Position numbers and translations under genes: made by a program. A model generated the notes under the pieces. That model was given only the letters and a program-made list of their open reading frames with translations. It was not told where the DNA came from and searched no databases. From Candidatus Gottesmanbacteria bacterium GW2011_GWA2_43_14 (GTDB taxonomy: Bacteria; Patescibacteriota; Microgenomatia; 2-02-FULL-39-11), in contig LCFP01000007.1 of NCBI GenBank assembly GCA_000999095.1, positions 5,013 through 69,012 on the forward strand: a DNA stretch of 64,000 nt, read 5' to 3'. Shown piece by piece: positions 1 to 31,464 of this stretch. The stretch's first letter is position 1, and every line of letters begins with the position of its first letter.

Positions 1-1755
1 TCCTTCCGACTGCTGGTCCAGCCTGAGTCAGGCTGGTTGAATTCCACCTGCCGGTATTCATAAAAGATTGATCCTACTTTAGTCCGGCCGACCTTAAGAC
101 CTGCTCCGTCAATTCTGACTTTCCAGCTATTTCCGTCAGCCTCAGGATAAGCATATGTCAATGACCCGCCGATTGTCAGAGTATATTCACGGCTTTCATC
201 CCCGTAGACGAACAAGGTTGGGGAGGAACCGGTTAATCTTAACGGGCAAAAATTAAAATCTTCCCATTCTTCCCGCAGCATTTTTAATTCCCTGACTTCA
301 TCCTGGCTGCCTTTTTCATCAATTACCAAAGAGTCAAATTCAGCTATGACTGCGTTTATCTCAGGCAGCGGCTCAACTGTTGCCGGGATCAGGAACCAGT
401 TGTTGGCGCGTTTTTGGTTCTGATTGTTGATGGTAAATTTTCCCACGTCGCCATAGCCGCTTAAAGTTATGATAGGCGCCAGCTGGCTTTCCGACGGGAC
501 ACATGGTGAAGCATTGGTGACGGTTCCTGCCTGGTCGGGATTAAAAGTGCCCAGTTTCAACGATTCATCATCCAGGGCAGGTGCCTCAGTAACCCCGGCT
601 ACCTCACCGGCAAAAACCTGGCGGTTATTAAGCGCCGGTACAGCCATAATAAAGGTTGTGTTGAATCCGCTTTTAGTCACAGCGTTGCCTTTTAGAACAT
701 ACATCGGCTCTATCATTTTATTGCTTGCCGGATTTTCCAGGTAAGTCAGGATATAATCAGTTACCTCAGCCCGGAGGTTGTCTGCCCTGTTTTCCGGAAA
801 TATCTCCTCCCAGGCGATGTTTTCCGTGTTATCAGGTACAATTATAGACAGGTTGGCCATCCCGGAAGTCATTTGCAGGTAAGCTTCATCGGGATTTATC
901 AGATTTTCCGCTCCATAACTCAATTCCGAATCTATTAATTTAAGATTGGAGGTGATTCTCATACCTTGTCCTCCACCCAGTGCCACGGTGACTGTATTGA
1001 AATCATCAGGTCTCATTCTGCCGTCTTCTCCTGTTGAGGTGTTGACGATTTCCGGCTGTTCCGGTGTCAGGCTGTCAGTCATCCCGGGTTGAAGCTGATT
1101 CAATCTGGTTTCATTGGAAACATTAAGAAGACCTGAAAAATTTAATATCGGCAATCCGGCTTTGACAAAATCGCGATGGCATTCCACAAATATATATCCG
1201 TTTATATCATTTCTGGAGTAGGTGACAGGGCATTCTACTGTTTCATCAATCAAACCTAAGTCAAGCAGGTAGTTTCTGACAAACTCTTTTTCAGAGCCGG
1301 CGCCTCCCGGCAGCGAATAATCACGGTAGGAAACCAGTTCATAATTGCCGCTGTTAGTTTGGAATTTCAGGTAACCTGCGTTTTCAGGATCTTCCGTATT
1401 ATAGAAAATCACCGTATTGCCCTCGCTTTTGTTCTGGTTCAGGTCGAATTTCTGGGCAACAGATGCTAGGTAAGGAATGGAGTAATTTGTTCTGAAATTA
1501 TAGACTTTCACACTGTTAGGAACTGCCGTTCCGCTGTAATTGCCGCTGAGTTCACTGAAAGTCATCACCGGAGATGTCAAACGGGTCTGCTGCCTGCTTG
1601 CTGTGTCCGATTCAGAATCCGTGAATAATTGCTCTGTCATGATGTCGGCGGGGTTTTGTTTCTGTTTAAAGAGGGAGAAAAGGAGAGCGACCAGAAGAAT
1701 TAGTACCAGTGAGAGCAGGATGTATAACTTTTTTTTGGGCAGCTTATCCATCATA
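1..1755 (-). CDS. Large exported or membrane-anchored hypothetical protein. The start is at 1755/1752 (MMDKLPKKKLYILLSLVLILLVALL...) and the 3' end runs past the window edge.
   Basis: Hand translation of the minus strand gives an open frame of more than 580 codons. The N-terminal KKK plus hydrophobic segment is a signal anchor. The ORF track omits it because no stop lies in the window. It abuts the downstream cluster genes. Confidence 0.55.
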
Positions 1756-1815
1756 GAGATTAAAATTACGTAAAATTAATAATTAAATTAAGCGTAAACG
1801 AGGCGGAATAATATG

Positions 1816-4269
1816 TCAATAGTCAGTCAATAAATTCGGGTCAACCGTTATTTGGCTTCCTTCCTTCAGCTTGCCGTCCAGAAGCCTCTTGGCGATATAG
1901 TCTTCCAGAGTTGTTTCAATCGTCCTGCGCATAGCGCGGGCTCCGAATTCCCGGGAATTGCCTGTTGAAGCCAGGTAGTTGACCAGCTCGTCGCTGGGGT
2001 TGACCCGGATGGCTTTTTGGGCAATTCTGGAGTTTAAATTTTCAAGCATCAGTCTGGCTACCTGCCTCAGATGTCCCTGGGACAGAGGCGTAAAAACCAC
2101 AGTCCCGTCAAAACGATTGAGAAATTCAGGGGAAAATATTTTTTCTCTCAAGACGTGATCAACAATTTGATCCTGCAGTTTTTGCGGACTTGCTTCTGCG
2201 GCGACCTGTTCCCGGATATATTCCGATCCGGCATTTGATGTGGCGATGATAATTGTCTGCCGGCAGTCAATTTTTTTGCCGGAGGCATCATGCAGATAAC
2301 CTTCGTCCAGAAGCGTTAAAAAAAGATGCTGGATTTCTTTGGGGGCTTTTTCAATTTCATCGAAAAGAAGCAGGCTGAAGGGGTTAACGCTCAATTTTGT
2401 AGTCAGCTCCCCGGCTTTTTGACCGGCGCTTGAACCTATCAGCCTGGCCATGCCTTCTTCGCCCTGGTACTGGCTCATGTCAAAACGCAGCATTTTATCT
2501 TCCCCTCCGTAATAGACGGAACTTAGGGCTTTAGCCGTTTCCGTCTTGCCGACTCCGGTCGGTCCCAGGAAAAGGAAGGAGCCGATGGGTTTCTCCGAGG
2601 AAGAGACATTCATTCTGGCTCTTCTTAAAGCGGAGGCGATCATCCTGATGGCCATTTGCTGGTTGATTATCCGGCGGTGCAGGTAGTCTTCCAGATTAGC
2701 CAGTTTTTCCTTTTCACCTTCAAGAAGTTTGCCTATGGGAATCTTCAGTTTCTCTGTCAGGTATTTATCGATATCATCGCTGCGGATAAATTTATTACGG
2801 TTAGAGGCGATAATGGCATTCTCCAGCAGTTCTATCGCTTTACCGGGAAAAGGCGTTGCTGTCAGATAACGGTCGGCATCCTCAACGGTTTTTTTAACGG
2901 CCGCAAGCGAAATGACAGTGTTATATCTTCGTTCCAGGACCGGCACAATGGATATTTCCAGTTCCGTGATGACGGTTTTTAAATCAGGGGCCAATAGGAA
3001 AATTTCCTCAAACAGGCCTCCCAGGAGGCTATTTTTTTCGAGGAATTGATGATAATCGTCAGGCGTCGTCAAACCGATTAACCCAATTGAGCTTCTGGCA
3101 AATTTCTCGATGACATCCGTCAGATTTAGCCTGCCTTCGCCTTCGGAGGCATACTTGTCGAAGTCGTCGATAAACAGGATGATATTGCCGGCTTTCTCGG
3201 ATTCCTCATATATTTGCGAAAAAACGGCTTTTATTTCCTGGAGGTTCTTTTTATCCGAGCAAAGTGCGTGCATATCAACTTTCATGATTCTCTTGTGGGA
3301 CAGTTCTTTTTCACTCATGCCAAGGTACAGGTGGCGGGCCAGAGTTTCAACCAGCATATGTCTGGCTATACCGGGAACGCCAATCAGCATGACATTTTTA
3401 TTTTCGCTTTTAAGCAAAGCCCTTTCCATTTTTTTTATTTCCGCATCCCGTCCTAAAAGGAAGGGGAATGGTGTCGGTTCGGCAGTTAAATCATGGGCAT
3501 ATTTATCCAACTCAACTGTATAACCGTACGACCAGTCAATGCCTATCCCCGGCAGGGCGCGTATTCTCTTCTTGTCTTCGAGCAGGGGCCGCAGAGTCAA
3601 TGATTCGAGGCGGCGGTACCAGTTCAGACAGGTGAAGAAATCATCTTTGCTGATTTTATTGGCTGAAATTTCCGGTAAAAAGGAAAGGTTTTCATAAATT
3701 TGATTATAGAGGTTTTCTGCATTATCCGGAGTTGTCATAGGCAAAATGGAGAAAGGAGGCAGTTTGGCGATGATGCTCCCAGGGTCCAGTCCAAGTCTTA
3801 TCAAGCAAAAACGGCCGGTTTGCGACAGGCAGAATTTTTTGAGGTATTGACCGTTTCCCAAGGCTTGCATGATTTCAGCAGTCTCCTCGTTGAAATTTTT
3901 TTTTCTTGAAACGTAAAAAGGCAGGGAAACAAAGGGCAGCAAGAGCCAGCCGATTAAAACCGGTAGGTAAAGAAAAGGCAAAAGCAGCATCATGGTCAGG
4001 CCGGTAAAAATTGCCGTCAGCCGCAGGAAAAAACCCATAAATCTTGACGTCAGATTGAATCCAACGACAGAGGCGTAATTCGACAGCTGGAAACCCCGGC
4101 CTTTAACAGCCCGGATGCGTTTCCAGGGCGCCAACAGGTTGGGCAGATGGTGGGGAATTCCCGAAAAATAGTAGGAAAATAAAACCAGATTGAAGAAATG
4201 GTCCGTGAGGCGGGGCCAAATCCGGGAATAATGCCAGTTGAGAAAGTCTTCCAGATTATTCATTTTCAA
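1816..4269 (-). CDS. Membrane-anchored ClpA/ClpB-like double AAA+ ATPase (817 aa). The first ATPase domain (NBD1) is degenerate and the second (NBD2) is intact.
   Basis: The N-terminal ~270 aa contain several hydrophobic helices (e.g. FFLRLTAIFTGLTMMLLLPFLYLPVLIGWLLLPFVSLPFYV). D1 aligns to ClpB D1, but its Walker A reads GVPGIARH where ClpB has GEPGVGKT, and its Walker B reads ILFIDDFD. D2 is canonical: FLFLGPTGVGKTE, LLFDEIEKA, TSNAGS, and the C-terminal GARAMRRTIE small domain. Confidence 0.8.
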   Translation of the reverse strand: MKMNNLEDFLNWHYSRIWPRLTDHFFNLVLFSYYFSGIPHHLPNLLAPWKRIRAVKGRGFQLSNYASVVGFNLTSRFMGFFLRLTAIFTGLTMMLLLPFLYLPVLIGWLLLPFVSLPFYVSRKKNFNEETAEIMQALGNGQYLKKFCLSQTGRFCLIRLGLDPGSIIAKLPPFSILPMTTPDNAENLYNQIYENLSFLPEISANKISKDDFFTCLNWYRRLESLTLRPLLEDKKRIRALPGIGIDWSYGYTVELDKYAHDLTAEPTPFPFLLGRDAEIKKMERALLKSENKNVMLIGVPGIARHMLVETLARHLYLGMSEKELSHKRIMKVDMHALCSDKKNLQEIKAVFSQIYEESEKAGNIILFIDDFDKYASEGEGRLNLTDVIEKFARSSIGLIGLTTPDDYHQFLEKNSLLGGLFEEIFLLAPDLKTVITELEISIVPVLERRYNTVISLAAVKKTVEDADRYLTATPFPGKAIELLENAIIASNRNKFIRSDDIDKYLTEKLKIPIGKLLEGEKEKLANLEDYLHRRIINQQMAIRMIASALRRARMNVSSSEKPIGSFLFLGPTGVGKTETAKALSSVYYGGEDKMLRFDMSQYQGEEGMARLIGSSAGQKAGELTTKLSVNPFSLLLFDEIEKAPKEIQHLFLTLLDEGYLHDASGKKIDCRQTIIIATSNAGSEYIREQVAAEASPQKLQDQIVDHVLREKIFSPEFLNRFDGTVVFTPLSQGHLRQVARLMLENLNSRIAQKAIRVNPSDELVNYLASTGNSREFGARAMRRTIETTLEDYIAKRLLDGKLKEGSQITVDPNLLTDY

Positions 4270-5189
4270 TAAAAATTACACTTTTCTTTTCTCGGATCGC
4301 AGATGGTTTTTTGTAACCCGGGCACGCGTACCAGATTTGAAATATAGTTAACAAGATTATTGTAACCGATAAGTCCCTTGAAAAAATCTTCTGTCATTTT
4401 GACGAAGGACGTATTGTTTGAGGCAGCATGGGAAAGGACGCATGACAGGTTGAAAACCGGTTCTCCGAAAACGGTTTTGTTGGGGTATTCACAACCGACG
4501 CTTTGCCTCATGCCTGGATTAACCGTCAGACAGCGGTTCAGGCAGAAGCGGTATGTTCCATTATCATTTGAGCGGCATTCAGCATTGTTTTCCATCATAA
4601 AACAATGGGTATATCCCTGAGGACCGGTAAACGTCCCGCTTTCGCAGAGGTCCCGGCAGCCGCCCGGCCCGTTAAGCGGCAAACTGCCGCATAATCCCTG
4701 ACCGCCGCCGATATTGCACCAGCATGAAGGGACTCCGGCTGTATACAGAATGCCGCATCCCCGGGGATTGGTTTTTTTGGTTACCGGTGCCGGCGGAGTT
4801 GGTGTGCGTGTCGCCGGACCGGGTGGCCGGGTCGGGAAAGTACAGGCAAAATCCGGTGACAAATTGCAGGCACCGTTGCGAAGTGCATTGCAGTCCGCTG
4901 TTGCCTGGGGGCTTAAACCGCCGTTGCAGTAATGGTTGATTATTTGCGTGTCTGAACACAAGTTGTGCTTGTAACTGTTGTAGATTGGGCGCAAATCAGT
5001 CCTGTATCGTAGAAGACAATCAACGCATTTGGCAGGAAACTGGGGATTTTGAAAATCAAGGTTACAGTTTTTGTCCGAACCCATAGGAACAGCCGGATAG
5101 GTCGGCAGCGGCGTTTGGGCAGAAGCCTGTTTTGCCGCTAAAATTACGGCTGAGACAAAAATGGAAAAAATAATTTTTATTTTGATCAC
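4266..5189 (-). CDS. Secreted Cys-rich protein (307 aa) with a Pro-rich linker and the conserved C-terminal tag ...VRVPGLQKTICDPRKEKC.
   Basis: It has a Sec signal peptide (MIKIKIIFSIFVSAVILAAKQASAQ), more than 25 Cys, and a PTRPPGPATRTPTPPAP linker. The C-terminal motif is shared with the two upstream paralogs. It overlaps its neighbours by 4 bp. Confidence 0.7.
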   Translation of the reverse strand: MIKIKIIFSIFVSAVILAAKQASAQTPLPTYPAVPMGSDKNCNLDFQNPQFPAKCVDCLLRYRTDLRPIYNSYKHNLCSDTQIINHYCNGGLSPQATADCNALRNGACNLSPDFACTFPTRPPGPATRTPTPPAPVTKKTNPRGCGILYTAGVPSCWCNIGGGQGLCGSLPLNGPGGCRDLCESGTFTGPQGYTHCFMMENNAECRSNDNGTYRFCLNRCLTVNPGMRQSVGCEYPNKTVFGEPVFNLSCVLSHAASNNTSFVKMTEDFFKGLIGYNNLVNYISNLVRVPGLQKTICDPRKEKCNFY

Positions 5190-5191
5190 TC

Positions 5192-6949
5192 TCAGGGAAT
5201 TGCACAGCCGTTAGTGACCTTCGGATCACAGGTGGCTTTTTGCAGTCCGGGTACGCGCTGAATTTGTTCGATTAACAGACTTAATTCAATGGCATCGATG
5301 GTGCCCTGTCGATACTGGTCAATATAGCTGCTGATGACTTCATTGGTTGATTGGCTGACGGAAGCGGTTCCCAGAGGATCAGGAAATTCAGCCGTAATAT
5401 CGACCTTAGCCGGCGGATTTACCTGGCAGACACTGGCCTGGCAGGAAGCCATATAATCAATATTTTCTATGACGACTCCCGCAGGTCCGTAAGCTTTGAC
5501 ATAGACGTCATATTTCCTGTCCGGAAAAAGATTGTTAAAGCGGTAGGGGAAAACTACCCCGCTTTGGATGCCTGCTTTGGGAATTTCTATTTTCCGTAAA
5601 TAGTTATCTCTGACATCATTGATCCAGACATAAACAGAATCAAATTGCGCTTTACTGGTAAAGTTCAGGATGACTTCCCCCGAGATTTCGGAATTAGGAG
5701 GCGTGCCGTAGCGGCACTCATACAAAATGTCAAAAGTATTTGGTGGGGAATAAGGCGAGGTGACATCGACACAGGCCTGGCTGTCATATCTCCAGTATGA
5801 GGCTATCTGGCGGTTGATTGGCTGTCCGGCTACCCGGAAACAGTGGCCGCTTCCGTCGGTTGAGCATTGTCCCTGGGGGTTGATACCGTCGACCGAAAAA
5901 GCCCTTTGGTCAGGATTTAAATTATTGCAGCTGACGTCCGTAAAATAAGAGATGTAGTTGGTATGGTTGCAGATTTCACCGTCGGGAGAATACCAGGCAG
6001 GTTTGGGAAGTGCAATCGGTGTTGCGCCGGGCGGAGGGGTAGAGCTTGGGGTTGGAGTATTTGCGGGTCTGTCAATGGTAAAGCTGACAACACAGGCCGG
6101 CTGCGGCGATGAGAATCCGGTATCATCAAGAATAAAATAACCGTTGACCTGGACTTTTAGAGGAAGTTTGTTCCCCCAGAGTTCATCGGGACGGTTCAGG
6201 TCATCGTAATAAACGGTAAATGTATGGCTGGTTGAGCCTGATTTAGGCACGATGACATTATAATGCTGGCCGCCGAAAATAATGGGTTTGGGGTTGCCGG
6301 GACCGTAGAGATTGTCCCTGTTATAAAAGAAAAGCTGGTAGTTGGTGATGGCGGTCCCTGCCGGGGGCAGACCGCTGATAGTGATTTGCAGGGATTGGCT
6401 GGGACTGAGGATGCCGCCTGAGATTGATGAACTCTGACAGACCGCGGGGCGGTATTCTTCCGTTTCTAAAAAACAGGCACTGTTGGTAGGCGACCAGCTG
6501 CCGCTGTCCTGGGCCATATAAGGCACGATTTGCACTCTTTTCAGTTTGCTTCCTAGAGGCAGATTCTGCTTCAGGTCGGTAATAAAAAGCTCAGCCGCGG
6601 AAACGGTTCTGGTACCCGTAGTTCTTTGGGTAGTGGTGGGATCTTTAAATATCAGCGGATACTGTCCGGCCGGACAATCAGTCGTCGGGATAACCACATC
6701 TCCGCCGACATTGGTACAGACCACCTGGCCGAGCGTCGGATCACCGGGTTCTTTAAAATCAAGATTACGGATCAGAAAATAAAAATTATTGACAGGGATG
6801 TCTGATGTGGACTTAAATGTTACGGTTTCATTGACTTTGAGGACAGCTTTGTCGATAGTTGCTCCCGTACAGGATTGGGCATATGTTTTTCCGGGCAAAA
6901 GATACAGAAAGAAGATACCCAGAAAAAGAACTGATAATATAGTTTTCAT
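5192..6949 (-). CDS. Secreted large protein (585 aa), paralog of the C-terminal part of the 7447-9750 product, ending ...IQRVPGLQKATCDPKVTNGCAIP.
   Basis: The signal peptide is MKTILSVLFLGIFFLYLLPGKTYAQ. Two internal regions align to the 767-aa neighbour (IDKAVLKVNETVTF.../IDKATIGPGESFTV... and ...YDVYVKAYGPAG.../...YELYVKAYDRQG...). A PTPSSTPPPGATP linker is present. Confidence 0.7.
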   Translation of the reverse strand: MKTILSVLFLGIFFLYLLPGKTYAQSCTGATIDKAVLKVNETVTFKSTSDIPVNNFYFLIRNLDFKEPGDPTLGQVVCTNVGGDVVIPTTDCPAGQYPLIFKDPTTTQRTTGTRTVSAAELFITDLKQNLPLGSKLKRVQIVPYMAQDSGSWSPTNSACFLETEEYRPAVCQSSSISGGILSPSQSLQITISGLPPAGTAITNYQLFFYNRDNLYGPGNPKPIIFGGQHYNVIVPKSGSTSHTFTVYYDDLNRPDELWGNKLPLKVQVNGYFILDDTGFSSPQPACVVSFTIDRPANTPTPSSTPPPGATPIALPKPAWYSPDGEICNHTNYISYFTDVSCNNLNPDQRAFSVDGINPQGQCSTDGSGHCFRVAGQPINRQIASYWRYDSQACVDVTSPYSPPNTFDILYECRYGTPPNSEISGEVILNFTSKAQFDSVYVWINDVRDNYLRKIEIPKAGIQSGVVFPYRFNNLFPDRKYDVYVKAYGPAGVVIENIDYMASCQASVCQVNPPAKVDITAEFPDPLGTASVSQSTNEVISSYIDQYRQGTIDAIELSLLIEQIQRVPGLQKATCDPKVTNGCAIP

Positions 6950-6952
6950 ATA

Positions 6953-7450
6953 TTATGGACTGATATCAATTTTGATTTCATGATTGCCGCTGATGAGATT
7001 TTTGCCCTGGGACATCAGCCGGCTTTGCTTTGAATCAAGAGAGATTATGGTAGGTCCGGTATTTTTTTTGGTGATAAAGCGGATAGTCACTGCAGGATTT
7101 TTTTCAGCCGCAAGTGCCGTTAAATGGAAAAGCCCCCGTATTCTTTCGGTTTTCACATCTCCCCAGAGGGACGGACTAGGGTCTACCTTTTCAACATCCA
7201 GATACTTAGGATCATAGGCAAGCCACAAATCAATCTCCTGTATCGGCTTCCGGCTTTCAAATGAGATACTCATTGGAAAAGTGGATTGAGTTTTGACTAT
7301 TTTTGCCGGTGTTTCTATCTTAATTTTTACTCCTATTGGAAGGATCAGCCGGATCGCGGCCAGGAATATAAAGACAGCCACGGCTGCCGTGAGATAGTAA
7401 ATGCGCCGGTTGTTTTTTTTATGGCGGATATTCCGGTTCTTTTTTTTCAT
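6953..7450 (-). CDS. Membrane-anchored cohesin-like domain protein (165 aa).
   Basis: A basic N-terminus is followed by one TM segment (YYLTAAVAVFIFLAAIRLIL). The extracytoplasmic domain carries an AYDPKYLDVEKV motif resembling the cohesin YDP-x-xL-x-V signature. It is a paralog of 10024-10575. Confidence 0.55.
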   Translation of the reverse strand: MKKKNRNIRHKKNNRRIYYLTAAVAVFIFLAAIRLILPIGVKIKIETPAKIVKTQSTFPMSISFESRKPIQEIDLWLAYDPKYLDVEKVDPSPSLWGDVKTERIRGLFHLTALAAEKNPAVTIRFITKKNTGPTIISLDSKQSRLMSQGKNLISGNHEIKIDISP

Positions 7451-9985
7451 GGGAGGTCACATCCTCCGGGAATTTTGGGATCACAAGTGGCTTTCTGCAG
7501 GCCCGGCACTCTTGTTATGCGGTGGATGAAGCGCGAAATTTCCAACGGGTCTGCCTGGTTATTGATCCATCTGTTGATCATGTCGTTAAAACGCTGGTTA
7601 ATTTGAGCGGGAGAGGCGTCAACCAGAGGATCGGGAAAAACCAATTTGAAATTGATGACCCCGTCAGGCATGCTTTGGCAGCTGTAACTGCCGCAGGAAC
7701 CTTCATTTATGACGCCGATATAATCAATGGCAGTACCCTGTCGGTCATAAGCTTTGACATAGAGCTCATACGTCTTGTCGTAGAAGAGGGGGGAAAAATT
7801 AAATCGGAATTTGGAATTGTTTTTAACATCTTCAGCTTTTTGTTCATGGAATGTCAGGTAGTTTTCGGCAGAGATGTCATGGAGGTAGACGATAATATTG
7901 CGGAACGGTTTGGCTCCCTCAAAGCTGACGCTGACTTCTCCCGTTATCCTGCCTTTGGGTTCGCTGGTGAAAGAACAGGTGAATAAGCGGTCAAAAATCG
8001 TAGCAGGAATGTCATCCCTGTCTGTAATCGGGGTGCAATCTTCAGAGCCCGAACGTATCAGATATTTCGGCGTGATTGCTTCATTGACGATGACACCGCC
8101 GGCTTTGTAGCAAAAACCTGTGCCGTCTTCATTGCAGCCGGTTTCTTCTTCACGATCGGATAAAGTGTCGCCTGACAGGTATCCTACCGGACTCAGGCAA
8201 AGTGAATCGTTATAGAGTTTGATAAAGTTCTTGTCTGTGCATTTTAGTCCGTCGGGAGCATACCATTCCAATGGATCGTTCGGATTGCCGACGCAGGTGG
8301 TTCCGTTCCAGCAGGCATTAGGGCCGCAATCACAGCCTGAGGTTAGAGCTTGGGTGCAGTTAATTTTAGGGTCTCCCGCCAGTTCACAACTGTCCACACA
8401 ACCGTTGGGGAAGACTTCCCATTTAAATCCCTGGTTTTCGCAGGCAAATTTTTCCGCATCGCTGCAGACAAGCTGGCATTCATTCTCGATGCATTTCGTT
8501 GAGCAATTTCCTCCAATTCCCGAACAAAAATCAGGGTCTTCGCACTGACCGGCAAGAAACTCTTTATTTTCGACGGTGCATTTACCGGTTTCTTTATCCA
8601 GGGCGCAGCCGCAGTCGAAATCAGTCTGGCAGAACAATTTTTCGGAAGCGGGGGTAGGTGTAATGGTGATATCGGGTTCGGGTGTGGGAACATCATCAGT
8701 TACCGATGACGAAACATGTCCGACACAGCCGATTTCAGCTACGGACAGCTGGCCGCCCGGACTCTGGAAAAAATAAGCATTGATCTGAATTTTTTGAACC
8801 GGCAAATTGCCGTTTCTGGCGTCAAGTTTGCCGAATATTTCCTCGTAGGAAATTGTTCTGCTGCCTGTTGTCCGCATCCCGGCCCAGTCAGGATCCTCGA
8901 ATATCAAATGGTGAGTGCCGGTAGGACAGTTGCCGACGATGCCGGTTACATCGCCGCCCTCGGCCACGCAGACCGATTTGGGATTTCCCGGACCGAAGAG
9001 ATTGTCCATGTTATAGAATTGGTACCAAAAACGGTTGATGGGAGTTTTGGAAAATGAGGTTACCGTAAAAGATTCTCCCGGACCGATGGTAGCCTTGTCT
9101 ATGGAGATACCCTGGCAGAGGTTTGGCCTGTCGGGACCGAGTGCCGATACAGGGGTTGCCGATGGTGCCGGTACTCCCGGATCGCCCGGGTCTTTACCCT
9201 GGCATACACAAATCGGCAAACCGTCCGATCCTTCGCCATCGGCCACACAAGTCCCGCCCGTGCCGCAGCTGGTTCCCTCGTCGTGGTTTTTGCAGTTGTT
9301 GTTCGATTCGGCTGAACAGGAGGTGCCTCCGCCCGGATAGCCGGGATCGCCTGGATCTCCGGGACCGCCGGGACCGCCGGGGTCACCCGGACCTGTAGAA
9401 GGCGCAGTGCAATTGCATATCGGATTCCCGCTGGTATCATTTGATCCGGTTATATTGCAGTTTTTGTCCGTAGCGCAGGCAAAGCCGAGATTTTTGCTTT
9501 TACAGACAGTTTCCGATGAAAGTGAAGAGCATTTCTGTTCACAGCAGGTGGATTGGATTCCGCAGTCTTTGACTCCTACGCTGTAATAGTTAGTATCGCA
9601 GGGAAGTTCCGCCAAAGGTGAACAGTATCCCTGGCAAAGCGGAGCTGTTGGGCAATTATCAGCAATATCGCCGCATTTTAAAATAGAGCCTACATAGCCG
9701 CATTTTCCAGGACAGTTTAAATCGGTTGTGCATGTCTGACCGGCGGACAATATCGCCGCATTTTAAAATAGAGCCTACATAGCCGCATTTTCCAGGACAG
9801 TTTAAATCGGTTGTGCATGTCTGACCGGCGGATGTACAAGAAGTTGAGGTCGCGGCCTGCTTTTGGGGGTTTTGGGGCTCAAGTGCGAGGCGGACAGCGG
9901 CGGCGACACCGACGACCATCGTCACCAGAAGCACCAATTCAATACCGGCAAACCCGGCCTGGCGGAATCTTCTAAATATTTTCAT
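7447..9985 (-). pseudogene. Giant type IV pilin-headed Cys-rich adhesin-like gene, about 830 aa if contiguous. An 85-bp tandem duplication splits it into ORFs 9659-9985 and 7447-9750.
   Basis: The N-terminus MKIFRRFRQAGFAGIELVLLVTMVVGVAAAV is a class III prepilin signal (G|F..E5). The 28-aa segment SAGQTCTTDLNCPGKCGYVGSILKCGDI is encoded twice, by the two repeat copies. The body has EGF-like Cys repeats, a collagen-like GPGDPGGPGGPGDPGDPGYPGGG run, and the C-terminal tag ...ITRVPGLQKATCDPKIPGGCDLP. Confidence 0.6.
9662..9831. repeat. Perfect tandem duplication of 2 x 85 bp (9662-9746 and 9747-9831).
   Basis: I checked base by base that the two 85-bp copies are identical. Because 85 is not a multiple of 3, the duplication shifts the reading frame of the pilin-like gene. 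Confidence 0.9.
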
Positions 9986-10023: not shown

Positions 10024-10575
10024 CTAAAGAATATTCACGTCCAACTGGTCAATTCGTTTCGGATCGAGAATATTGATGCCGTTGGTGGCCACGATCGTTT
10101 TTGTCCGGTCAAAGTTAATTTCGGTTTTGCCTTTATTTTCGGTGGCCTGGAATACGATTTCAGCTACGGTTTCTTTGCCCTTTGGCAATATAATTTCTTT
10201 GCCGTCAAAGGTGGCCACTCCGGAAACCTTCACATAGCCGCTGCCGCTGACGTTGATAGGGTAATTGGCGAAAAAATTACCGGTTGAAACTGAAGTGACT
10301 TTCAGGTATTTCGGGTCGAATGCCACTACAAAGTCAGCCGCGGCCACTTCGGTTTTACCGGAATCAAGAATCAAGGTAACTTTGAAATCTTCCCCGGCCG
10401 GGATCCGGCTGTTTTCGGCAAGGAGATCCAGTTTGGCTTCCTGTTTGATTTCACCTTCCTTCGGCGCTCTTTTTTGCTGGATGATATAAGCAGCCAGAAG
10501 GCCGATTATAAAAAAAAGTGTAAGGATGAATAATTTGCTGGCAGATTTTCCGGTTGAAACTGGTTTTTCCTCCAT
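10024..10575 (-). CDS. Membrane-anchored cohesin-like domain protein (183 aa), paralog of 6953-7450.
   Basis: It has an N-terminal TM segment (LFILTLFFIIGLLAAYII) and an FVVAFDPKYLKVTSV motif. It is the first gene of the minus-strand cluster. Confidence 0.55.
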   Translation of the reverse strand: MEEKPVSTGKSASKLFILTLFFIIGLLAAYIIQQKRAPKEGEIKQEAKLDLLAENSRIPAGEDFKVTLILDSGKTEVAAADFVVAFDPKYLKVTSVSTGNFFANYPINVSGSGYVKVSGVATFDGKEIILPKGKETVAEIVFQATENKGKTEINFDRTKTIVATNGINILDPKRIDQLDVNIL

Positions 10576-27365: not shown

Positions 27366-27400
27366 AACCTGGGAGGTAGCGCAGATACGCAACCTAGGGG
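27366..27400 (+). repeat. REP-like palindromic element, copy 1.
   Basis: AACCTGGGAGGTAGCGCAGATACGCAACCTAGGGG, located between the convergent genes tsf and the TraD-like gene. Confidence 0.7.
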
Positions 27401-29604
27401 GTAGTGACCATTTTTTCATCCTTACTTTTGGCCTTTTTGGTGTAGCGTTCTTTGGAAAGGCGCATCACTTTTTCCCTGTTCTGGTTAATGGATTTGGGCA
27501 AAGGCAAAGTGACGGCATGGAAGGGCAGGGATGTCAGGTTGTCGATGGCCAGCTTGATTATTATCTGGAAAGTGCCCAGGTTGACCAAATCTTCTTCTTT
27601 GTACCACTGGCCGAATTCCCTGGCCAGGTGGTGCGCATCCTGGGCGCCGATGATAAAGGAGATCAGTGTGCCGGCATTGCCGAAAATTGCCTTCTGGACG
27701 TCTTCCTCGACCTGGCCGACATACTGGTTGGCTAAAACGAGATTGAGCCGGTATTTCCGCGCCTCTGACAGGATTTTTATAAATGAGGTTGTAGCAAAAT
27801 TCTGGAACTCGTCGACATACATATAGAAATCCTTGCGTTCAGCTTCGGGCACATTGACCCGGTTCATGGCTGCCAGCTGGATTTTGGTGATGAACATGGC
27901 GCCGAGAAGTGCGGCATTGTCCTCTCCCAGTTTTCCCTGGGACAGATTGAGGATCAGTATTTTCCGGTTGTTCATGATGTCTTCCAGGTCGATGGTTGAG
28001 GTCGGATGCTCGAGGATCTGCCTGATTGTCGGCGACATGACAAACTGGCCGACTTTGTTCTGGATGGGGGCGATGGCCTCGCTTTTCAGGCGGGGATGCA
28101 TTTTGTCGTATTCATTCCTCCAGAAATTCTGCAGTATTTTGTCCTGGACTTTATTAAGGACCCGGGCGCGGAAATTCGCATCGGCCAGAAGGTCCGGCAC
28201 CATGACCAGAGTGGAATTGGGGTATTCCAGAAGAGTCAAAATGACGTTTCTCAGGATATATTCAAGCCTCGGCCCCCAGGAATAGGAATAGAGTTTGGAA
28301 AAAATGGAGACAATCCCGGAAGATATAAGTTCTTTATGCACGGGATTTTTAACTTCCAGGGGATTCATCCAGAAAGGCTGTTCCTGGTCATAAGGCTCGA
28401 GGTAGACCACATCATTCAGGCGGTAGGAAGGTACATAATCCAGTAAAATTTCCGACAGGTCCCCGTGCGGATCGATGACGCAGACTCCTTCCCGGTTGCG
28501 CATGTCATTGATGGCCATGTTGGCGATCAAAGTTGATTTGCCTGTGCCGGTTTTTCCGATTATATACATGTGTTTCCGGCGGTCATACTTTTTGACGCCG
28601 AAAGTGGTCAGGGTGTTTTTGTACTCGGCTTTGGCAAAAAAATTAATTTCCTGCTTTTCCTCATCGGACAGGTCGGTGGCGACAGGCAGATTGGGCGGCG
28701 GCTCGCCGGCCAATGATCTGCCCCAGGAAATATTTTTGATGCCGGCCAGAAGAATGGTAGGCGGGTGCCAAAGGGTAGCCAGCTCCATAGTATTTAAAAT
28801 CTGGTGGCGGGGAAAATGGCTTTTCTCCCTTTTTAATATTTTTTGGTAGGTTATATCCTTGAAAAACCAGCGTGGGCGCTTGAGAATAAAGCGGTTGCCT
28901 TCCCCCAGGGCAAAGGCGCCGAAAGCCCCGGCCAGATTGTACATCTGGGCATAAGCCTGTTGTCGGGTGGGGGCTCCGATCAGTATCCTGATATAAGTGC
29001 GGTAGCCGGTATGGTTGACTTTTTCTTCGATCAGTCGGGCCAGCGGAAACGGCCGGGTTTTGTCGGGCGCCCGGGGGCTCGGATCAGGCATGCCTTTTTG
29101 CAGCATCGATGCCACCATCCTCTGCCAGTTGAAATGCGGCGGTTCGATAACGATCTGGATCAGCCCCGATTCATCTTTGGAAAATTTGGAAAAGACGCCG
29201 ATTATGGAAGAGAGGGGATCGAGCTCCTTGAAATCTTTATAGGTGCGGATCGGGTAATAGAAATAGCTGGCAAGCATCAGATTGCCGATGGCCAGATACT
29301 TGCTTTTGATGATGTTTGACAGATAATCGGGTACTTTGCTGATGAGGATTTTGGGATACTGGCTGGTTATCTGGCTTTCCAGAAAAGTCTGGAATGACTT
29401 CGGTATGACGGAATAAAAATGAACACTTTGATTATAGGAAGCAATTTCAAAAGAGAGAGTCCTGACTTTTATCCAGAGCCTTTTCCAGTGGGGGATATGC
29501 CCGCCCGGAAAAAGTGAGGAAAAGACCTGGGTCATCATCTCCGGAGACTCTTCGCCTGTTTTGGATGATTTAATTTCCAGGACGACTTTAGATTCGGCTG
29601 CCAT
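27394..29604 (-). CDS. TraD/VirD4/HerA-FtsK-superfamily P-loop ATPase (about 736 aa).
   Basis: Walker A GKTGTGKST, Walker B FYMYVDEFQNF, and ARKYRLNLVLANQ. The start is taken at the ATG at 29604 (MAAESK...), because the longer ORF overlaps the divergent gene's promoter. Confidence 0.55.
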   Translation of the reverse strand: MAAESKVVLEIKSSKTGEESPEMMTQVFSSLFPGGHIPHWKRLWIKVRTLSFEIASYNQSVHFYSVIPKSFQTFLESQITSQYPKILISKVPDYLSNIIKSKYLAIGNLMLASYFYYPIRTYKDFKELDPLSSIIGVFSKFSKDESGLIQIVIEPPHFNWQRMVASMLQKGMPDPSPRAPDKTRPFPLARLIEEKVNHTGYRTYIRILIGAPTRQQAYAQMYNLAGAFGAFALGEGNRFILKRPRWFFKDITYQKILKREKSHFPRHQILNTMELATLWHPPTILLAGIKNISWGRSLAGEPPPNLPVATDLSDEEKQEINFFAKAEYKNTLTTFGVKKYDRRKHMYIIGKTGTGKSTLIANMAINDMRNREGVCVIDPHGDLSEILLDYVPSYRLNDVVYLEPYDQEQPFWMNPLEVKNPVHKELISSGIVSIFSKLYSYSWGPRLEYILRNVILTLLEYPNSTLVMVPDLLADANFRARVLNKVQDKILQNFWRNEYDKMHPRLKSEAIAPIQNKVGQFVMSPTIRQILEHPTSTIDLEDIMNNRKILILNLSQGKLGEDNAALLGAMFITKIQLAAMNRVNVPEAERKDFYMYVDEFQNFATTSFIKILSEARKYRLNLVLANQYVGQVEEDVQKAIFGNAGTLISFIIGAQDAHHLAREFGQWYKEEDLVNLGTFQIIIKLAIDNLTSLPFHAVTLPLPKSINQNREKVMRLSKERYTKKAKSKDEKMVTTP

Positions 29605-29673
29605 GTGGTTTAAGTATAGATTTTCCCTGTGCAAATTAAAAGTTGTATAATCACGCGAATCCGAAGGTCTTAT

Positions 29674-31464
29674 ATGGAAAATGAAGCCAGGAATCAATTG
29701 ATATTAAAACTAAGCCATAATTTTGAATTTGCCACTGCCAGTCTAGATCAATTTTATACAGACTTTTTGGAAAATAATTTGGAGATAAAAGACAAAGTAG
29801 ATACTTTTGCAAAAAGAGTAAATGCTTTATATGGCGGGCAGGAAGCAAGCTATATCGAACACGCATTGAAATTGGCAGTTATAAGTTATCAGTATAATTG
29901 GGATTCTTTAAAACATTACCGAAAATCTCCAACACCGGAAGGGAAAAAAGTTCCAACGCTTTTCCATTCATTGGAAATGGCAGACAAACTGCTTGACGGG
30001 GACGGCCGTGATGATAAGCCCTTCCGCTGGGAAGCTGTAGCCGCCATTTTAATGCATGATATTCCTGAGGATGTGGAAATGGTATTTGTAGAAAACGGGG
30101 GTGAATTTCAGGTAAAAGGAGAAAAATGGTTCGATTTAATTCGTGATTCTTTTGAAACGACCGGTAAAGCTGATTTAATAGTTGATCTGATAAAAGGGGT
30201 AACAGAGAGAAAAATTCCTGATAGGTATAGCGAAGAAGGGAGGGATATCAGAGAAAAAATAAAGGCAACATCAATTTTTAAGATGATTAAAGCCTATGTT
30301 GTTAACGGTCGGATAAAAGGCAGAAAAGTCTTAATGGATGTTCCGGACGTAGAATTAGAGTCGGTTTATGAGGTTGTCTTTAACTTGAATCATTTATTTG
30401 ACAGCGCACTGAGGTCTCCGGAACATCTTCAAATACTGTTATTAAAGATTACGGACATCTGGCATAACTTTCAGACACCGGATTGGGTAAAATCTTCCAA
30501 AGTACTGCGGGGCCGTCTGGCCGCTAGTTTAGCAGAATGGTTTGGTTGGTATTCTATGAGATCAGATTTAGTTACCTTATTAGGTAATGTTGCTGATACT
30601 ACCACGGCATATGCGCCGGAATTGGAATATGAGTTACTTCCCCATAGTGAATTAATGGATAAAATGCTTAAGATGGAGGAATTTGGAAATCAGTTTATTG
30701 AAACACTTAAGAAAAAAGGCATTATACCCGGGACAGCAGAATTTATTTCATCAATAGGTTTTCCGGTCGTAAACAGTGAATATGAATTGGGGAAATTTGA
30801 CGGATCAACCCTGCCAAAACCAGAATTTATAGTATCTTTTGAAAACGAGGCTTTTACGATTTTAGAGGGCGACATAAAGCAAAACTATACCACTATAAGG
30901 TTATTATTACAGAATCAGGAGGTTGCTGCAGGTGAGTCTATAGCCGGTTTAAAAATAAAAAATTACCAGGACAGCATATATTACAGAAAACTAATGGGAC
31001 GATATAGAATTGACGGAGTTTTAAAATTAGGAAACAATGAAGGATTTTTATTTAGAATGGAGAGCAATGAGCCTTATATGACTGATTACTTTAAGGAAAG
31101 ATCGGATGTAAATTATACGGAAATACCCGAATATAAGGGGTTATTTCATAATAAACTCAGGGATAAAGAAGGATGGAGGATTCATTTAAATGCACTAATA
31201 GGTTTTTTCTACGAACCAAATATGCCTTCTTCTCTGTCCAGATTGATATCTCCAGTATTTTACGACGGTTCACTTTATTTTGTTGATGGGGAGCAGACAT
31301 TTTCAGAATTAAAAGATCTATTAAATTTAAAAGCGGATATTTTGATTGATAATCCCGTAAGTTATAAAAATAAAAGAATCACCGGTAAAACTAAAGTTCG
31401 TGATTTATTTCCATCTGCAGCCAGATCTCACGTTATCAAGAGGAGAATGATTACCGTTCAATAA
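29674..31464 (+). CDS. HD-domain protein with a RelA/SpoT-type hydrolase fold and a ~350-aa unknown C-terminal region.
   Basis: YIEHALKLAVISY, AAILMHDIPEDV and KITDIWHNFQT align to SpoT HD motifs (PYITHPVAVA, ALLHDVIEDT, KLADRTHNMRT). The -10 box TGTATAAT at 29645 supports the start at 29674. Confidence 0.5.
   Translation: MENEARNQLILKLSHNFEFATASLDQFYTDFLENNLEIKDKVDTFAKRVNALYGGQEASYIEHALKLAVISYQYNWDSLKHYRKSPTPEGKKVPTLFHSLEMADKLLDGDGRDDKPFRWEAVAAILMHDIPEDVEMVFVENGGEFQVKGEKWFDLIRDSFETTGKADLIVDLIKGVTERKIPDRYSEEGRDIREKIKATSIFKMIKAYVVNGRIKGRKVLMDVPDVELESVYEVVFNLNHLFDSALRSPEHLQILLLKITDIWHNFQTPDWVKSSKVLRGRLAASLAEWFGWYSMRSDLVTLLGNVADTTTAYAPELEYELLPHSELMDKMLKMEEFGNQFIETLKKKGIIPGTAEFISSIGFPVVNSEYELGKFDGSTLPKPEFIVSFENEAFTILEGDIKQNYTTIRLLLQNQEVAAGESIAGLKIKNYQDSIYYRKLMGRYRIDGVLKLGNNEGFLFRMESNEPYMTDYFKERSDVNYTEIPEYKGLFHNKLRDKEGWRIHLNALIGFFYEPNMPSSLSRLISPVFYDGSLYFVDGEQTFSELKDLLNLKADILIDNPVSYKNKRITGKTKVRDLFPSAARSHVIKRRMITVQ

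What the first reader, a model, noticed from the sequence alone, without database searches (positions are those of the whole stretch)
4266..9985. Three tandem secreted Cys-rich proteins share a C-terminal VPGLQK-(A/T)-x-CDP tag
The three C-termini are ...NLVRVPGLQKTICDPRKEKCNFY, ...IQRVPGLQKATCDPKVTNGCAIP and ...ITRVPGLQKATCDPKIPGGCDLP. Each is preceded by an amphipathic helix. The rest of the 307-aa protein is unrelated to the other two, so the tag behaves like a portable module. It could be a sorting signal, a docking motif or a processing site. A strictly conserved 12-mer at the extreme C-terminus of co-operonic exported proteins is the pattern seen in dockerin, sortase and exosortase systems, yet it matches none of their consensus sequences.
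Basis: seen in the sequence. Interest (0 to 1): 0.75.

Follow-up and report, generated by a model that had tools for sequence, protein, structure and literature searches.

The report
Cohesin-linked C-terminal docking module in CPR bacteria
Three neighbouring secreted proteins of a tiny uncultured groundwater bacterium end in the same, previously undescribed 48-residue module, which elsewhere is always encoded next to a membrane-anchored cohesin, so it is most likely a new kind of plug that fastens varied proteins to the cell surface.

Summary
VPGLQK..CDP occurs exactly three times in the window, each time at the C-terminus of a minus-strand gene (307, 585 and about 817 aa). The 12-mer is the core of a roughly 48-residue module: helix, EF-hand-like loop, helix, R-V-P-G-L-Q, then a two-cysteine loop.

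The module is portable and rare. Only 60 clusters among 1.84 billion representative proteins carry it. It sits almost always at the extreme C-terminus, on unrelated passengers, in Gottesmanbacteria and other Patescibacteria.

It matches no Pfam, NCBIfam or PDB family. It is not detectably a dockerin and has no sortase or exosortase anatomy.

In all 14 non-redundant loci with enough flank, tag genes lie beside a TM-anchored cohesin gene. Usually a TM-anchored ClpB-like AAA+ gene lies on the far side.

Best explanation (confidence about 0.5, inferred from context only): a non-canonical, disulfide-stapled cohesin-binding module that displays secreted proteins on the cell surface. The AAA+ family is much broader than the cassette, so its link may be positional.

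The apparent frameshift in the largest gene is an assembly artefact.

Verdict: a new variant of cohesin-based docking, of moderate to high interest. Binding is untested.

The parts
10024..10575 (-). Head of the operon: a 183-aa protein with one N-terminal TM helix and a cohesin domain. It has no cysteines.
   Evidence: Pfam Cohesin PF00963, E 3.4e-10, 40.7 bits against a cut-off of 24.1. Orthologues sit in the same position in L002, L006, L007, L008, L009, L017, L021, L022, L024, L028, L029, L095 and L096. Cys count is 0.
7447..9985 (-). Largest carrier, about 817 aa once repaired and 6.8% Cys. Its N-terminus MKIFRRFRQAG-FAGIELVLLV looks like a pilin or a signal anchor. It contains Cys-rich repeats and Ig-like domains and ends in the C-terminal module.
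   Evidence: ORFs 9659-9985 and 7447-9750. Deleting one 85-nt copy gives a single 817-aa ORF. Intact orthologues are P0005 (965 aa), P0035 (978 aa) and P0006 (1000 aa).
9663..9832 (-). Two exact 85-nt tandem copies that shift the frame of the largest carrier. This is an assembly artefact inside a real in-frame 111-nt (37-aa) Cys-rich tandem repeat.
   Evidence: Copies start at 9832 and 9747 and are identical. Another assembly of the same sample (L092) has a 111-nt period with a scaffold gap at this spot, and contig L093 ends there.
7450..7596 (-). C-terminal module of the largest carrier (...NQRFNDMINRWINNQADPLEISRFIHRITRVPGLQKATCDPKIPGGCDLP).
   Evidence: Module HMM E 4.4e-22; alignments A2 and A3.
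6953..7450 (-). 165-aa protein with an N-terminal TM helix and a shortened, divergent cohesin-like domain. Its start overlaps the stop of the largest carrier (ATGA).
   Evidence: BLASTP against the 183-aa cohesin: 24% identity over 121 aa, E 1e-4. No Pfam hit. The gene junction was read. It is present only in assemblies of this species.
5192..6949 (-). 585-aa carrier with a Sec signal peptide (MKTILSVLFLGIFFLYLLPGKTYA-QS), two Ig-like repeats, a C-terminal beta-rich domain and the module.
   Evidence: It is 100% identical to P0001, a Candidatus Gottesmanbacteria GW2011_GWA2 hypothetical protein.
5195..5341 (-). C-terminal module of the 585-aa carrier.
   Evidence: Module HMM E 2.8e-19. The AF2 model shows helix-loop-helix plus an irregular tail, pLDDT 76.6.
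4266..5189 (-). 307-aa carrier (7.2% Cys) with a Sec signal peptide. The passenger part is unrelated to the other two carriers. It ends in the C-terminal module.
   Evidence: Seventeen homologues keep R288 V289 P290 G291 Q293 C297 P299 C304 invariant.
4269..4415 (-). C-terminal module of the 307-aa carrier.
   Evidence: Module HMM E 7.8e-24.
1816..4269 (-). ClpA/ClpB-like AAA+ ATPase (815-817 aa) with a conserved N-terminal membrane domain (WHY...PWKR), a degenerate first Walker A (GVPGIARH) and a canonical second one (GPTGVGKT). Its start lies within 2 nt of the stop of the 307-aa gene.
   Evidence: Pfam AAA_2 2.6e-46 and ClpB_D2-small 5.7e-20. It scores below every ClpA/ClpB/ClpV equivalog cut-off in NCBIfam. 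N-domain alignment A4. Hydrophobic stretch at residues 77-121. Junction read.
1..1803 (-). N-terminal part of a TM-anchored protein of about 684 aa that has no tag. Its gene runs off the window start and is conserved downstream of the AAA+ gene in Gottesmanbacteria loci.
   Evidence: Translation of frame 1. The 684-689-aa orthologues in L001-L003, L092 and L093 end without the module.

Best explanation
The shared ending is a self-contained extracytoplasmic domain of about 48 residues. Its pattern is N-x-x-F-x3-h-x2-[WFY]-x2-G-x-[IV]-x4-[MI]-S-x-[FYW]-[IV]-x4-R-[VTA]-P-G-[LV]-Q-x3-C-[DN]-P-x2-5-C. That is two short helices joined by an EF-hand-like loop, followed by an extended R-V-P-G-L-Q tail that is closed by an intramolecular disulfide loop.

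Proposed mechanism:
- The carriers are exported by Sec, either through a cleavable signal peptide or through an N-terminal anchor.
- The module then docks non-covalently onto the ectodomain of the small membrane-anchored cohesin encoded at the head of the same operon.
- A changing set of Cys-rich adhesin-like proteins and glycoside hydrolases is thereby held on the surface of these cell-wall-poor, episymbiotic CPR bacteria.

The module would thus work as a dockerin does without being a detectable dockerin.

What is shown: the domain exists, it is portable and sits at the C-terminus, it is under selection, its genes lie strictly adjacent to cohesin genes, and it has no known family.

What is inferred: binding to cohesin, the disulfide, the surface topology, and any role of the downstream AAA+ ATPase.
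For: 1. Portability and position. A profile search of 1.84e9 representative proteins gives 60 clusters. The module ends within 0-4 residues of the C-terminus in 73 of 74 unique copies. Passengers are unrelated to one another and include a GH catalytic core (P0069) and a NosD/beta-helix protein.

2. Selection. The invariant residues hold across about 65% sequence divergence. The three window copies differ at synonymous sites.

3. Context. In 14 of 14 non-redundant tag loci with flanking sequence, a TM-anchored Pfam-Cohesin gene abuts a tag-bearing gene, often with overlapping stop and start codons. These loci are the window, L002, L006, L007, L008, L009, L017, L021, L022, L024, L028, L029, L095 and L096.

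4. Association test. Among 35 non-redundant AAA+ loci sampled without regard to tag or cohesin, the counts are tag plus cohesin 8, cohesin only 1 (with a degenerate tail), tag only 0 and neither 26. Fisher p = 3.8e-7.

5. Turnover. The passengers and the number of carriers (1-3) change between loci, while the cohesin and the tag persist. L095 and the window each show alternating cohesin-carrier pairs.

6. Correlated divergence. Cohesin and tag distances correlate beyond what the AAA+ distance explains: partial r = 0.55, permutation p about 0.001, n = 10. This is suggestive only.

7. A paralogue of the passenger (P0007) carries a genuine dockerin at the same C-terminal position.

8. The module has exactly 2 Cys in 67 of 74 copies, and 4 or 6 in five more. 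The cohesins have essentially none. This fits an internal disulfide and non-covalent docking.

9. The AF2 model is a helix-loop-helix plus an irregular tail, a small shape typical of docking modules.
Against: - No binding test of any kind was possible.
- There is only one loop-helix unit, and the Ca-ligand positions are not conserved.
- The adjacency could reflect vertical inheritance of one operon in one clade, because the dCTP deaminase gene upstream is conserved as well. The Fisher and mirror-tree statistics are not phylogenetically independent.
- Some cassette proteins lack the tag: the 213- and 505-aa genes of L009 and the 236- and 333-aa genes of L022.
- P0007, which has the true dockerin, is not next to a cohesin.
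- One cohesin would have to serve up to three carriers.
Confidence: 0.5

Rival explanations
1. The module is an envelope-binding or self-association domain. It would bind peptidoglycan, an S-layer or a lipid, or oligomerise the carriers. The cohesin would be a separate component of the same surface complex, for example one that binds another part of the first N-anchored carrier, and not the tag's receptor.
For: The helical hairpin plus disulfide loop is generic and has no relative in PDB. One cohesin faces up to three tags. The first gene next to the cohesin always has a distinctive N-terminal anchor, which could itself be the cohesin partner. Cassette proteins without the tag exist.
Against: The tag is never seen without an adjacent cohesin, and the one cohesin seen without an HMM-detectable tag (L036) sits next to a protein ending in a degenerate version of it. 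Tag and cohesin distances co-vary. The only established function of cohesin domains is binding small C-terminal helical modules (established knowledge of cellulosomal and non-cellulosomal cohesin-dockerin pairs).
Confidence: 0.2
2. The module is a C-terminal recognition signal for the membrane-anchored ClpB-like AAA+ ATPase encoded immediately downstream. The ATPase would unfold, hold or extract these Cys-rich precursors, acting in export assistance, quality control or a degron-like pathway.
For: The last carrier gene and the AAA+ gene are only 2 nt apart (or overlap by 4 nt if the upstream TTG start is used) in the window, and they overlap in L011. The AAA+ gene lies downstream of the tag genes in every locus that extends far enough. 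C-terminal tags are the classic way in which Clp-type unfoldases pick substrates (established knowledge, e.g. ssrA).
Against: The AAA+ family is far broader than the tag. Twenty-six of 35 sampled loci have the ATPase with housekeeping neighbours and no tag. The carriers have Sec signals and paired cysteines, so the folded module is extracytoplasmic while the ATPase domains are presumably cytoplasmic. Other genes can sit between them: a bAvd-like gene in L010, a cohesin gene in L096, and genes of 385 and 356 aa in L095.
Confidence: 0.08
3. The module is a sorting or processing signal. A dedicated peptidase or transpeptidase would cleave at or near R-V-P-G-L-Q and link or release the protein, by analogy with sortase LPXTG, exosortase PEP-CTERM or transglutaminase-type Gln chemistry.
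For: The position is extreme C-terminal. P, G and Q are nearly invariant and the two Cys are invariant.
Against: No hydrophobic helix or basic tail follows the motif; only 10-20 polar residues with a Cys loop do. NCBIfam has no hit to any sorting-signal model. None of the cassette genes listed with Pfam families in the loci looked up is a sortase, exosortase, rhombosortase or peptidase. In one protein the module is internal and is followed by 313 more residues (P0079). The conserved unit also includes 30 residues of helices upstream, which is more than a cleavage motif needs.
Confidence: 0.07
4. There is nothing functional. The shared end is only a remnant of a recent lineage-specific duplication or of gene conversion among neighbouring genes.
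For: The 585- and 767-aa proteins are true paralogues. The genes are adjacent.
Against: The copies differ at synonymous sites. The module is conserved on the 307-aa family across 17 homologues of 44-62% identity. It also occurs on unrelated passengers in distant loci.
Confidence: 0.03

Closest known systems
Cohesin-dockerin docking (cellulosomal types I-III and the non-cellulosomal pairs known in bacteria and archaea)
   Same: A small helical module of about 50-70 aa sits at the C-terminus of diverse secreted enzymes and adhesin-like proteins. It is encoded with a cell-anchored cohesin, and its loop-helix has EF/F-hand spacing (G6, I/V8, acidic or polar 12). A paralogue, P0007, has a true dockerin in the same position.
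   Different: There is a single helix-loop-helix instead of two 22-residue Ca-binding repeats. The Ca-ligand positions 1, 3 and 5 are not conserved, and position 3 is an invariant aromatic residue. There is an added R-V-P-G-L-Q tail and a disulfide loop. No Pfam Dockerin_1 hit, hhalign probability 0.7%, and no structural match. The anchor is a single-domain cohesin of about 180-215 aa with its own TM helix, not a multi-cohesin scaffoldin with SLH or sortase anchoring.
C-terminal protein-sorting signals (sortase LPXTG, exosortase/archaeosortase PEP-CTERM, PGF-CTERM, VPXXXP-CTERM, GlyGly-CTERM, MYXO-CTERM, CGP-CTERM)
   Same: A short conserved motif rich in P and G lies at the extreme C-terminus of many exported proteins in one genome.
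   Different: The tripartite architecture is missing. No TM helix and no basic cluster follow the motif. No cognate sorting enzyme is encoded nearby, and no NCBIfam model matches.
EF-hand helix-loop-helix
   Same: The arrangement is helix, 12-residue loop, helix, with G at position 6, I/V at position 8 and often D/N at 1 and E/Q/D at 12. An example is D-K-W-K-S-G-E-I-D-A-T-E-M-S-S-F-I in P0048. AF2 predicts the two helices.
   Different: It is unpaired, a single hand. Ligand positions 3 and 5 are not conserved. There is no significant Pfam EF-hand hit; one member of 60 hits EF-hand_STIM1 at E 0.14. Calcium binding is doubtful.
C-terminal disulfide-bonded loop (D-region) of type IV pilins
   Same: Two Cys near the C-terminus enclose a short loop. 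The first carrier of each cassette has an N-terminus that resembles a class III (prepilin) signal: G-FAGIE in the window, G-LAVIE and G-FAALE in orthologues.
   Different: The other carriers have ordinary Sec signal peptides. The pilin likeness is below threshold (GspH and PilA N-termini at E about 0.1). The loop is 4-11 residues and is preceded by a helical hairpin rather than a pilin beta-sheet. No pilus assembly genes lie in the cassette.
Type IX secretion C-terminal domain (CTD)
   Same: A conserved C-terminal domain marks many otherwise unrelated secreted proteins.
   Different: The T9SS CTD is a beta-sandwich of about 80 residues in diderm Bacteroidota. This module is a 48-residue helical hairpin in Patescibacteria, and no model matches it.

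Membership tests
Dockerin (Pfam PF00404 Dockerin_1) | Sequence match to the dockerin profile | tested here: not met
   No Pfam hit at E <= 0.1 for the three full proteins. None among the 60 isolated modules at E <= 10. hhalign of the module alignment against five bona fide dockerins gives probability 0.7%, E 0.08.
Dockerin (Pfam PF00404 Dockerin_1) | Two tandem ~22-residue F-hand repeats with conserved Ca2+ ligands (D/N at loop positions 1, 3, 5, 9 and 12) | tested here: not met
   Alignments A2 and A3 show a single loop-helix unit. Position 3 is W/F/Y, and positions 1, 5 and 12 vary.
Dockerin (Pfam PF00404 Dockerin_1) | Dockerin fold | tested here: not met
Dockerin (Pfam PF00404 Dockerin_1) | Binds a cohesin | not testable with these tools
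   Genomic adjacency holds in 14 of 14 loci.
Cohesin (PF00963), for the 183-aa partner | Profile match above the gathering score | tested here: met
   E 3.4e-10, 40.7 bits against a 24.1 cut-off. The orthologous genes in other loci carry precomputed PF00963 hits.
Cohesin (PF00963), for the 165-aa protein | Profile match or clear homology to a cohesin | tested here: inconclusive
   No Pfam hit. Pairwise BLASTP to the 183-aa cohesin gives 24% identity over 121 aa, E 1e-4.
Sortase / exosortase / archaeosortase / rhombosortase sorting signals | Motif followed by a hydrophobic TM segment and a basic tail; cognate sorting enzyme present | tested here: not met
   The sequence after the motif is 10-20 polar residues with two Cys. 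NCBIfam finds no sorting-domain model. The Pfam families listed for genes in the loci looked up include no sortase or exosortase.
EF-hand | Significant profile match and conserved Ca ligands at loop positions 1, 3, 5 and 12 | tested here: not met
   One of 60 members hits EF-hand_STIM1 at E 0.14. Ligand positions are not conserved. The loop spacing is EF-hand-like, read directly from the sequences.
Type IV pilin / pseudopilin, for the first carrier | Class III signal (G|F-x-x-x-E) recognised by N_methyl / TIGR02532-type models | tested here: inconclusive
   The G-FAGIE motif is visible. Only sub-threshold hits appear: GspH E 0.1 and PilA E 0.14. Pfam finds nothing. Distant carriers have [KR]GE[IVL]A instead.
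ClpB / ClpA / ClpV equivalogs, for the downstream ATPase | Score above the NCBIfam equivalog cut-off; two functional nucleotide-binding domains | tested here: not met
   The best hit is ClpB at 396 bits against a cut-off of 1232. The first Walker A reads GVPGIARH instead of GxxGxGKT. An extra N-terminal membrane domain is present. It is a divergent Clp-type AAA+ and not an orthologue of any named Clp.

The most novel reading that the evidence does not exclude
The cassette is a self-sufficient, previously unrecognised surface-display system of Patescibacteria. In it a non-dockerin, disulfide-stapled single-hand module is the cognate ligand of a minimal TM-anchored cohesin. The membrane-embedded ClpB-like AAA+ ATPase is a dedicated third component that handles the Cys-rich clients, for example by unfolding or holding them for export, or by extracting and recycling them. 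The system would thus couple an unfoldase to cohesin-based display.
Probability: 0.12. Interest if true: 0.85.

Novelty: new variant of a known kind. Interest (0 to 1): 0.62.

Why it matters
Patescibacteria (CPR) may account for a quarter of bacterial diversity, and those so far cultivated live attached to other cells. How they hold adhesins and enzymes on a minimal envelope is largely unknown.

If this module is a cohesin ligand, three things follow:
- The cohesin-binding repertoire would extend beyond dockerins, to a module with one degenerate EF-hand and a disulfide loop.
- Candidate surface proteins in these genomes, including Cys-rich adhesin-like proteins and glycoside hydrolases, could be found with a simple sequence handle.
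- Protein engineering would gain a very small, possibly Ca-independent docking pair.

The pairing can be tested directly with two small recombinant proteins.

The result also flags a widespread, unstudied membrane-anchored Clp-type ATPase in CPR.

Tried and rejected
1. AlphaFold prediction of a cohesin-(GGGGS)6-tag fusion with 18 paired rows (A5).

2. A word-indexed search of 5.8e9 proteins with the module alignment A3 found nothing. The exhaustive representative search had already worked.

3. A scan of genome contigs with the module used a narrow back-translated pattern. It returned only three loci, all Gottesmanbacteria.

5. AF2 of the whole 307-aa protein gave pLDDT 67, with the tail below 50. 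That is too poor for a fold search or for judging how the module packs.

6. The idea that P0065 is a natural cohesin-tag fusion was rejected. Neither the cohesin HMM nor Pfam hits it.

7. The idea that the dockerin-bearing paralogue P0007 sits in an equivalent cohesin cassette was rejected. Its 6.3-kb contig has no cohesin.

8. The pilin reading of the first carrier's N-terminus rests only on sub-threshold hits. It is kept as a note and is not a claim.

9. Cluster look-ups for taxonomy gave one named member, 'Patescibacteria group bacterium'. Named hits are otherwise all Gottesmanbacteria.

10. Literature searches for cohesin or dockerin in CPR, Patescibacteria or Gottesmanbacteria found no description of this module. 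One paper notes large Cys-rich extracellular proteins in CPR that may act in attachment (PMC4736985).

11. The apparent hit of the L009 890-aa protein to the tag HMM is internal and weak, and that protein has no C-terminal module. It was discarded.


Full report
**Source and layout**

The 585-aa protein is 100% identical to a hypothetical protein of Candidatus Gottesmanbacteria GW2011_GWA2. That organism belongs to CPR/Patescibacteria, Microgenomates group.

On the minus strand the genes are tightly packed, with 0-3 nt spacers or overlapping stop and start codons from the large carrier onward; the cohesin gene and the large carrier are separated by 38 nt. In order they are:
- a TM-anchored cohesin (10575-10024; Pfam Cohesin E 3.4e-10);
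- a large Cys-rich protein (9985-7447);
- a 165-aa TM protein weakly similar to the cohesin (7450-6953; 24% identity, E 1e-4);
- the 585-aa protein (6949-5192);
- the 307-aa protein (5189-4266);
- a ClpA/B-like AAA+ ATPase with an extra N-terminal membrane domain (4269-1816);
- a TM protein of about 684 aa that runs off the window.

**Checking the observation**

The motif occurs exactly three times in all six frames of the 64 kb, each time directly before a stop codon.

The conserved core is encoded with different synonymous codons in the three genes. Selection on the peptide explains the identity, not recent conversion.

The 585- and 767-aa proteins are paralogues over 276 C-terminal residues and over an Ig-like repeat. 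The 307-aa protein shares only its last 45-80 residues with them.

The apparent split of the largest gene comes from an exact 85-nt tandem duplication. Removing one copy restores an 817-aa ORF. A second assembly of the same sample shows an in-frame 111-nt (37-aa) Cys-rich repeat with a scaffold gap at that point, and a third contig ends there. Orthologues are intact. The frameshift is therefore an assembly artefact.

**What the tag is**

Homologues of both families, aligned together, show a gap-free module of about 48 residues (A2; A3).
- N, the two Cys, and P, G, Q and P of R-V-P-G-L-Q...C-[DN]-P are invariant or nearly so.
- The 307-aa family keeps R288 V289 P290 G291 Q293 C297 P299 C304 in all 17 members, which are 44-62% identical to the window protein.
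- AlphaFold2 on the 60-sequence alignment gives two helices (residues 9-20 and 26-35 of 58) and an irregular tail, with mean pLDDT 76.6.
- The inter-helix loop has EF-hand spacing (G6, I/V8, often D/N1 and E/Q12). Position 3 is an invariant aromatic residue and the ligand positions vary.
- The module has exactly two Cys in 67 of 74 unique copies and four or six in five more, usually 6-7 residues apart. This points to an internal disulfide loop.

**Distribution**

An exhaustive HMM search of 1.84 billion representative proteins returns only 60 clusters at E <= 1e-3, and 21 at E <= 1e-10.

In 73 of 74 unique copies the module ends within 0-4 residues of the C-terminus. In one protein, P0079, it is internal.

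The passengers are unrelated to one another. They include Cys-rich repeats, Ig-like domains, a glycoside-hydrolase core (P0069) and a NosD/beta-helix protein. A chimera, P0026, joins the 585-type N-terminal half to the 307-type C-terminal half.

Named members are Gottesmanbacteria or 'Patescibacteria group bacterium'. The module is therefore portable, rare and lineage-restricted.

**Known families**

No known family matches.
- Pfam and NCBIfam give nothing for the full proteins.
- Pfam gives only scattered weak hits for the 60 isolated modules, and no dockerin among them.
- hhalign against five genuine dockerins puts the module in the expected loop register but with probability 0.7%.
- No hydrophobic segment or basic tail follows the motif, so it lacks the anatomy of sortase and exosortase signals.

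**Genomic context**

Wherever a tag locus has flanking sequence, a TM-anchored cohesin gene abuts a tag-bearing gene. The loci are the window, L002, L006, L007, L008, L009, L017, L021, L022, L024, L028, L029, L095 and L096. In L096 the cohesin ORF was missed by the gene caller and lies just downstream of the carrier.

The carrier next to the cohesin always has an N-terminal anchor: G-[FL]-A-x-[IL]-E-L in Gottesmanbacteria and [KR]-G-E-[IVL]-A-x-x-L-T-L elsewhere. Further carriers have ordinary signal peptides.

The number of carriers (1-3) and their passenger domains change from locus to locus, while the cohesin and the tag persist. L095 has two successive cohesin-carrier pairs, the second with a more divergent tag, which echoes the two cohesin-like genes in the window.

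The cohesins contain no or almost no Cys.

**The ATPase**

I sampled relatives of its N-terminal membrane domain in metagenomes. There were 196 relatives, of which 80 loci were fetched. Among 35 non-redundant loci with at least 3 kb upstream:
- 8 have both tag and cohesin;
- 1 has a cohesin followed by a protein with a degenerate tail (L036: VPAGLRVMLCMPPDC);
- none has a tag alone;
- 26 have neither (Fisher p = 3.8e-7, not corrected for phylogeny).

The tag-free loci belong to more distant ATPases whose neighbours are housekeeping genes. The ATPase family is therefore much broader than the cassette. Its adjacency may be inherited position, although the 2-nt spacing to the last carrier gene suggests co-expression.

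Cohesin and tag distances correlate after controlling for ATPase distance (partial r = 0.55, permutation p about 0.001, n = 10 loci). I treat this as suggestive only.

**Interpretation**

The best-supported mechanism is that the module is a docking domain for the co-encoded membrane-anchored cohesin. It would be a functional analogue of a dockerin that is not a detectable dockerin, stabilised by a disulfide loop, and it would hold a variable set of secreted proteins on the cell surface.

What is shown: the domain, its portability, its conservation, its absence from known families, and the strict cohesin adjacency.

What is inferred: binding, the disulfide, topology and biological role. I put this reading at about 0.5.

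The rivals are:
- an envelope-binding or oligomerisation module within the same complex (0.2);
- a recognition tag for the AAA+ ATPase (0.08);
- a cleavage or sorting signal (0.07);
- a meaningless duplication remnant (0.03, contradicted).

**Limits**

The full-length 307-aa model was too poor to use. Taxonomy for most metagenomic carriers is unknown. All context statistics share phylogenetic history.

Literature searches found no description of this module. Large Cys-rich extracellular proteins that may act in attachment have been noted in CPR genomes (PMC4736985).

**Verdict**

The finding is a real, previously unannotated, portable C-terminal domain. It most likely represents a new variant of cohesin-based docking in Patescibacteria. 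Interest is 0.62. It can be tested directly with two small recombinant proteins.

Noticed in passing
window 9663-9832 (minus strand): An exact 85-nt tandem duplication frameshifts the largest carrier gene. Another assembly of the same sample (L092) shows an in-frame 111-nt (37-aa, Cys-rich) tandem repeat with a scaffold gap here, and contig L093 ends here. The duplication is an assembly artefact, and the true repeat number is unknown.
   Followed up: yes
window 9985-9860 (N-terminus of the largest carrier); P0005, P0006, P0035; P0042-P0078: The carrier encoded next to the cohesin always starts with a conserved anchor. In Gottesmanbacteria it is G-[FL]-A-x-[IL]-E-L, which resembles a prepilin class III signal. 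Elsewhere it is [KR]-G-E-[IVL]-A-x-x-L-T-L-I-S-V-G. After the helix comes a Q-x-x-[KR]-x-Q-A motif. Only sub-threshold pseudopilin hits were found (E about 0.1).
   Followed up: partly
window 1816-4269 (minus strand); L012-L091: The Clp-type AAA+ ATPase has a conserved N-terminal membrane domain (invariant W12 H13 Y14, P48 W49 R51, G-x-[DN]-W-[AS]-Y-G-[YF]-T). Its first Walker A is degenerate (G-x-P-G-x-A-R-H). It scores below all ClpA/B/V equivalog cut-offs. At least 196 relatives exist in metagenomes, most without the cohesin/tag cassette.
   Followed up: partly
L010 3486-3857: A small gene with bAvd / 23S_rRNA_IVP Pfam hits, the accessory-protein type of diversity-generating retroelements, sits between a tag-bearing 1029-aa Cys-rich protein and the AAA+ gene. 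No reverse transcriptase is visible on the short contig.
   Followed up: no
P0026 (461 aa), in alignment A1: A chimeric protein. Its N-terminal half resembles the 585-aa family (the WY-x-DG...C region plus an Ig-like domain). Its C-terminal half is the 307-aa family including the module. This is evidence of domain shuffling among cassette proteins.
   Followed up: no
P0007 (639 aa), L094 4085-6004: A paralogue sharing the Ig-like passenger domain (49% identity) ends in a genuine dockerin (PDB dockerin hits at 1e-4) instead of the module. Its 6.3-kb contig has no cohesin gene.
   Followed up: yes
L095 2563-10442: Two successive cohesin-carrier pairs lie in one operon. The second carrier (1304 aa) has a divergent tail lacking R-V-P-G-L-Q (...HTKSTNLNVCDPAKGEC), and the second cohesin is more divergent too. 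These may be cognate pairs with different specificity.
   Followed up: partly
L096 9434-10087: A 218-aa cohesin ORF (HMM score 187) was missed by the public gene call, which has a 73-aa reverse-strand ORF there instead. Here the cohesin follows the tag-bearing gene rather than preceding it.
   Followed up: yes
window 1-1803 (minus strand) and L001-L003, L092, L093: A TM-anchored protein of about 684-689 aa with no Pfam domain and no tag is conserved immediately downstream of the AAA+ gene in Gottesmanbacteria loci. Its function is unknown.
   Followed up: no
window 27394-29697 (minus strand) and 32730-34379 (minus strand): Elsewhere in the window lie a 767-aa protein with TrwB/VirD4-type coupling-protein and HerA-like domains (E 4e-11) and a 549-aa DUF6909 protein (E 2e-178). 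Both are unrelated to the finding.
   Followed up: no
P0066, P0071, P0076 (module region): A sub-family of the module carries four extra cysteines (…QIACYAQGTCSALDVSKWISEIACHVPGLQQQTCDPTKGECQMLFVPPCLY). This suggests additional disulfide staples across the two helices and the tail.
   Followed up: no
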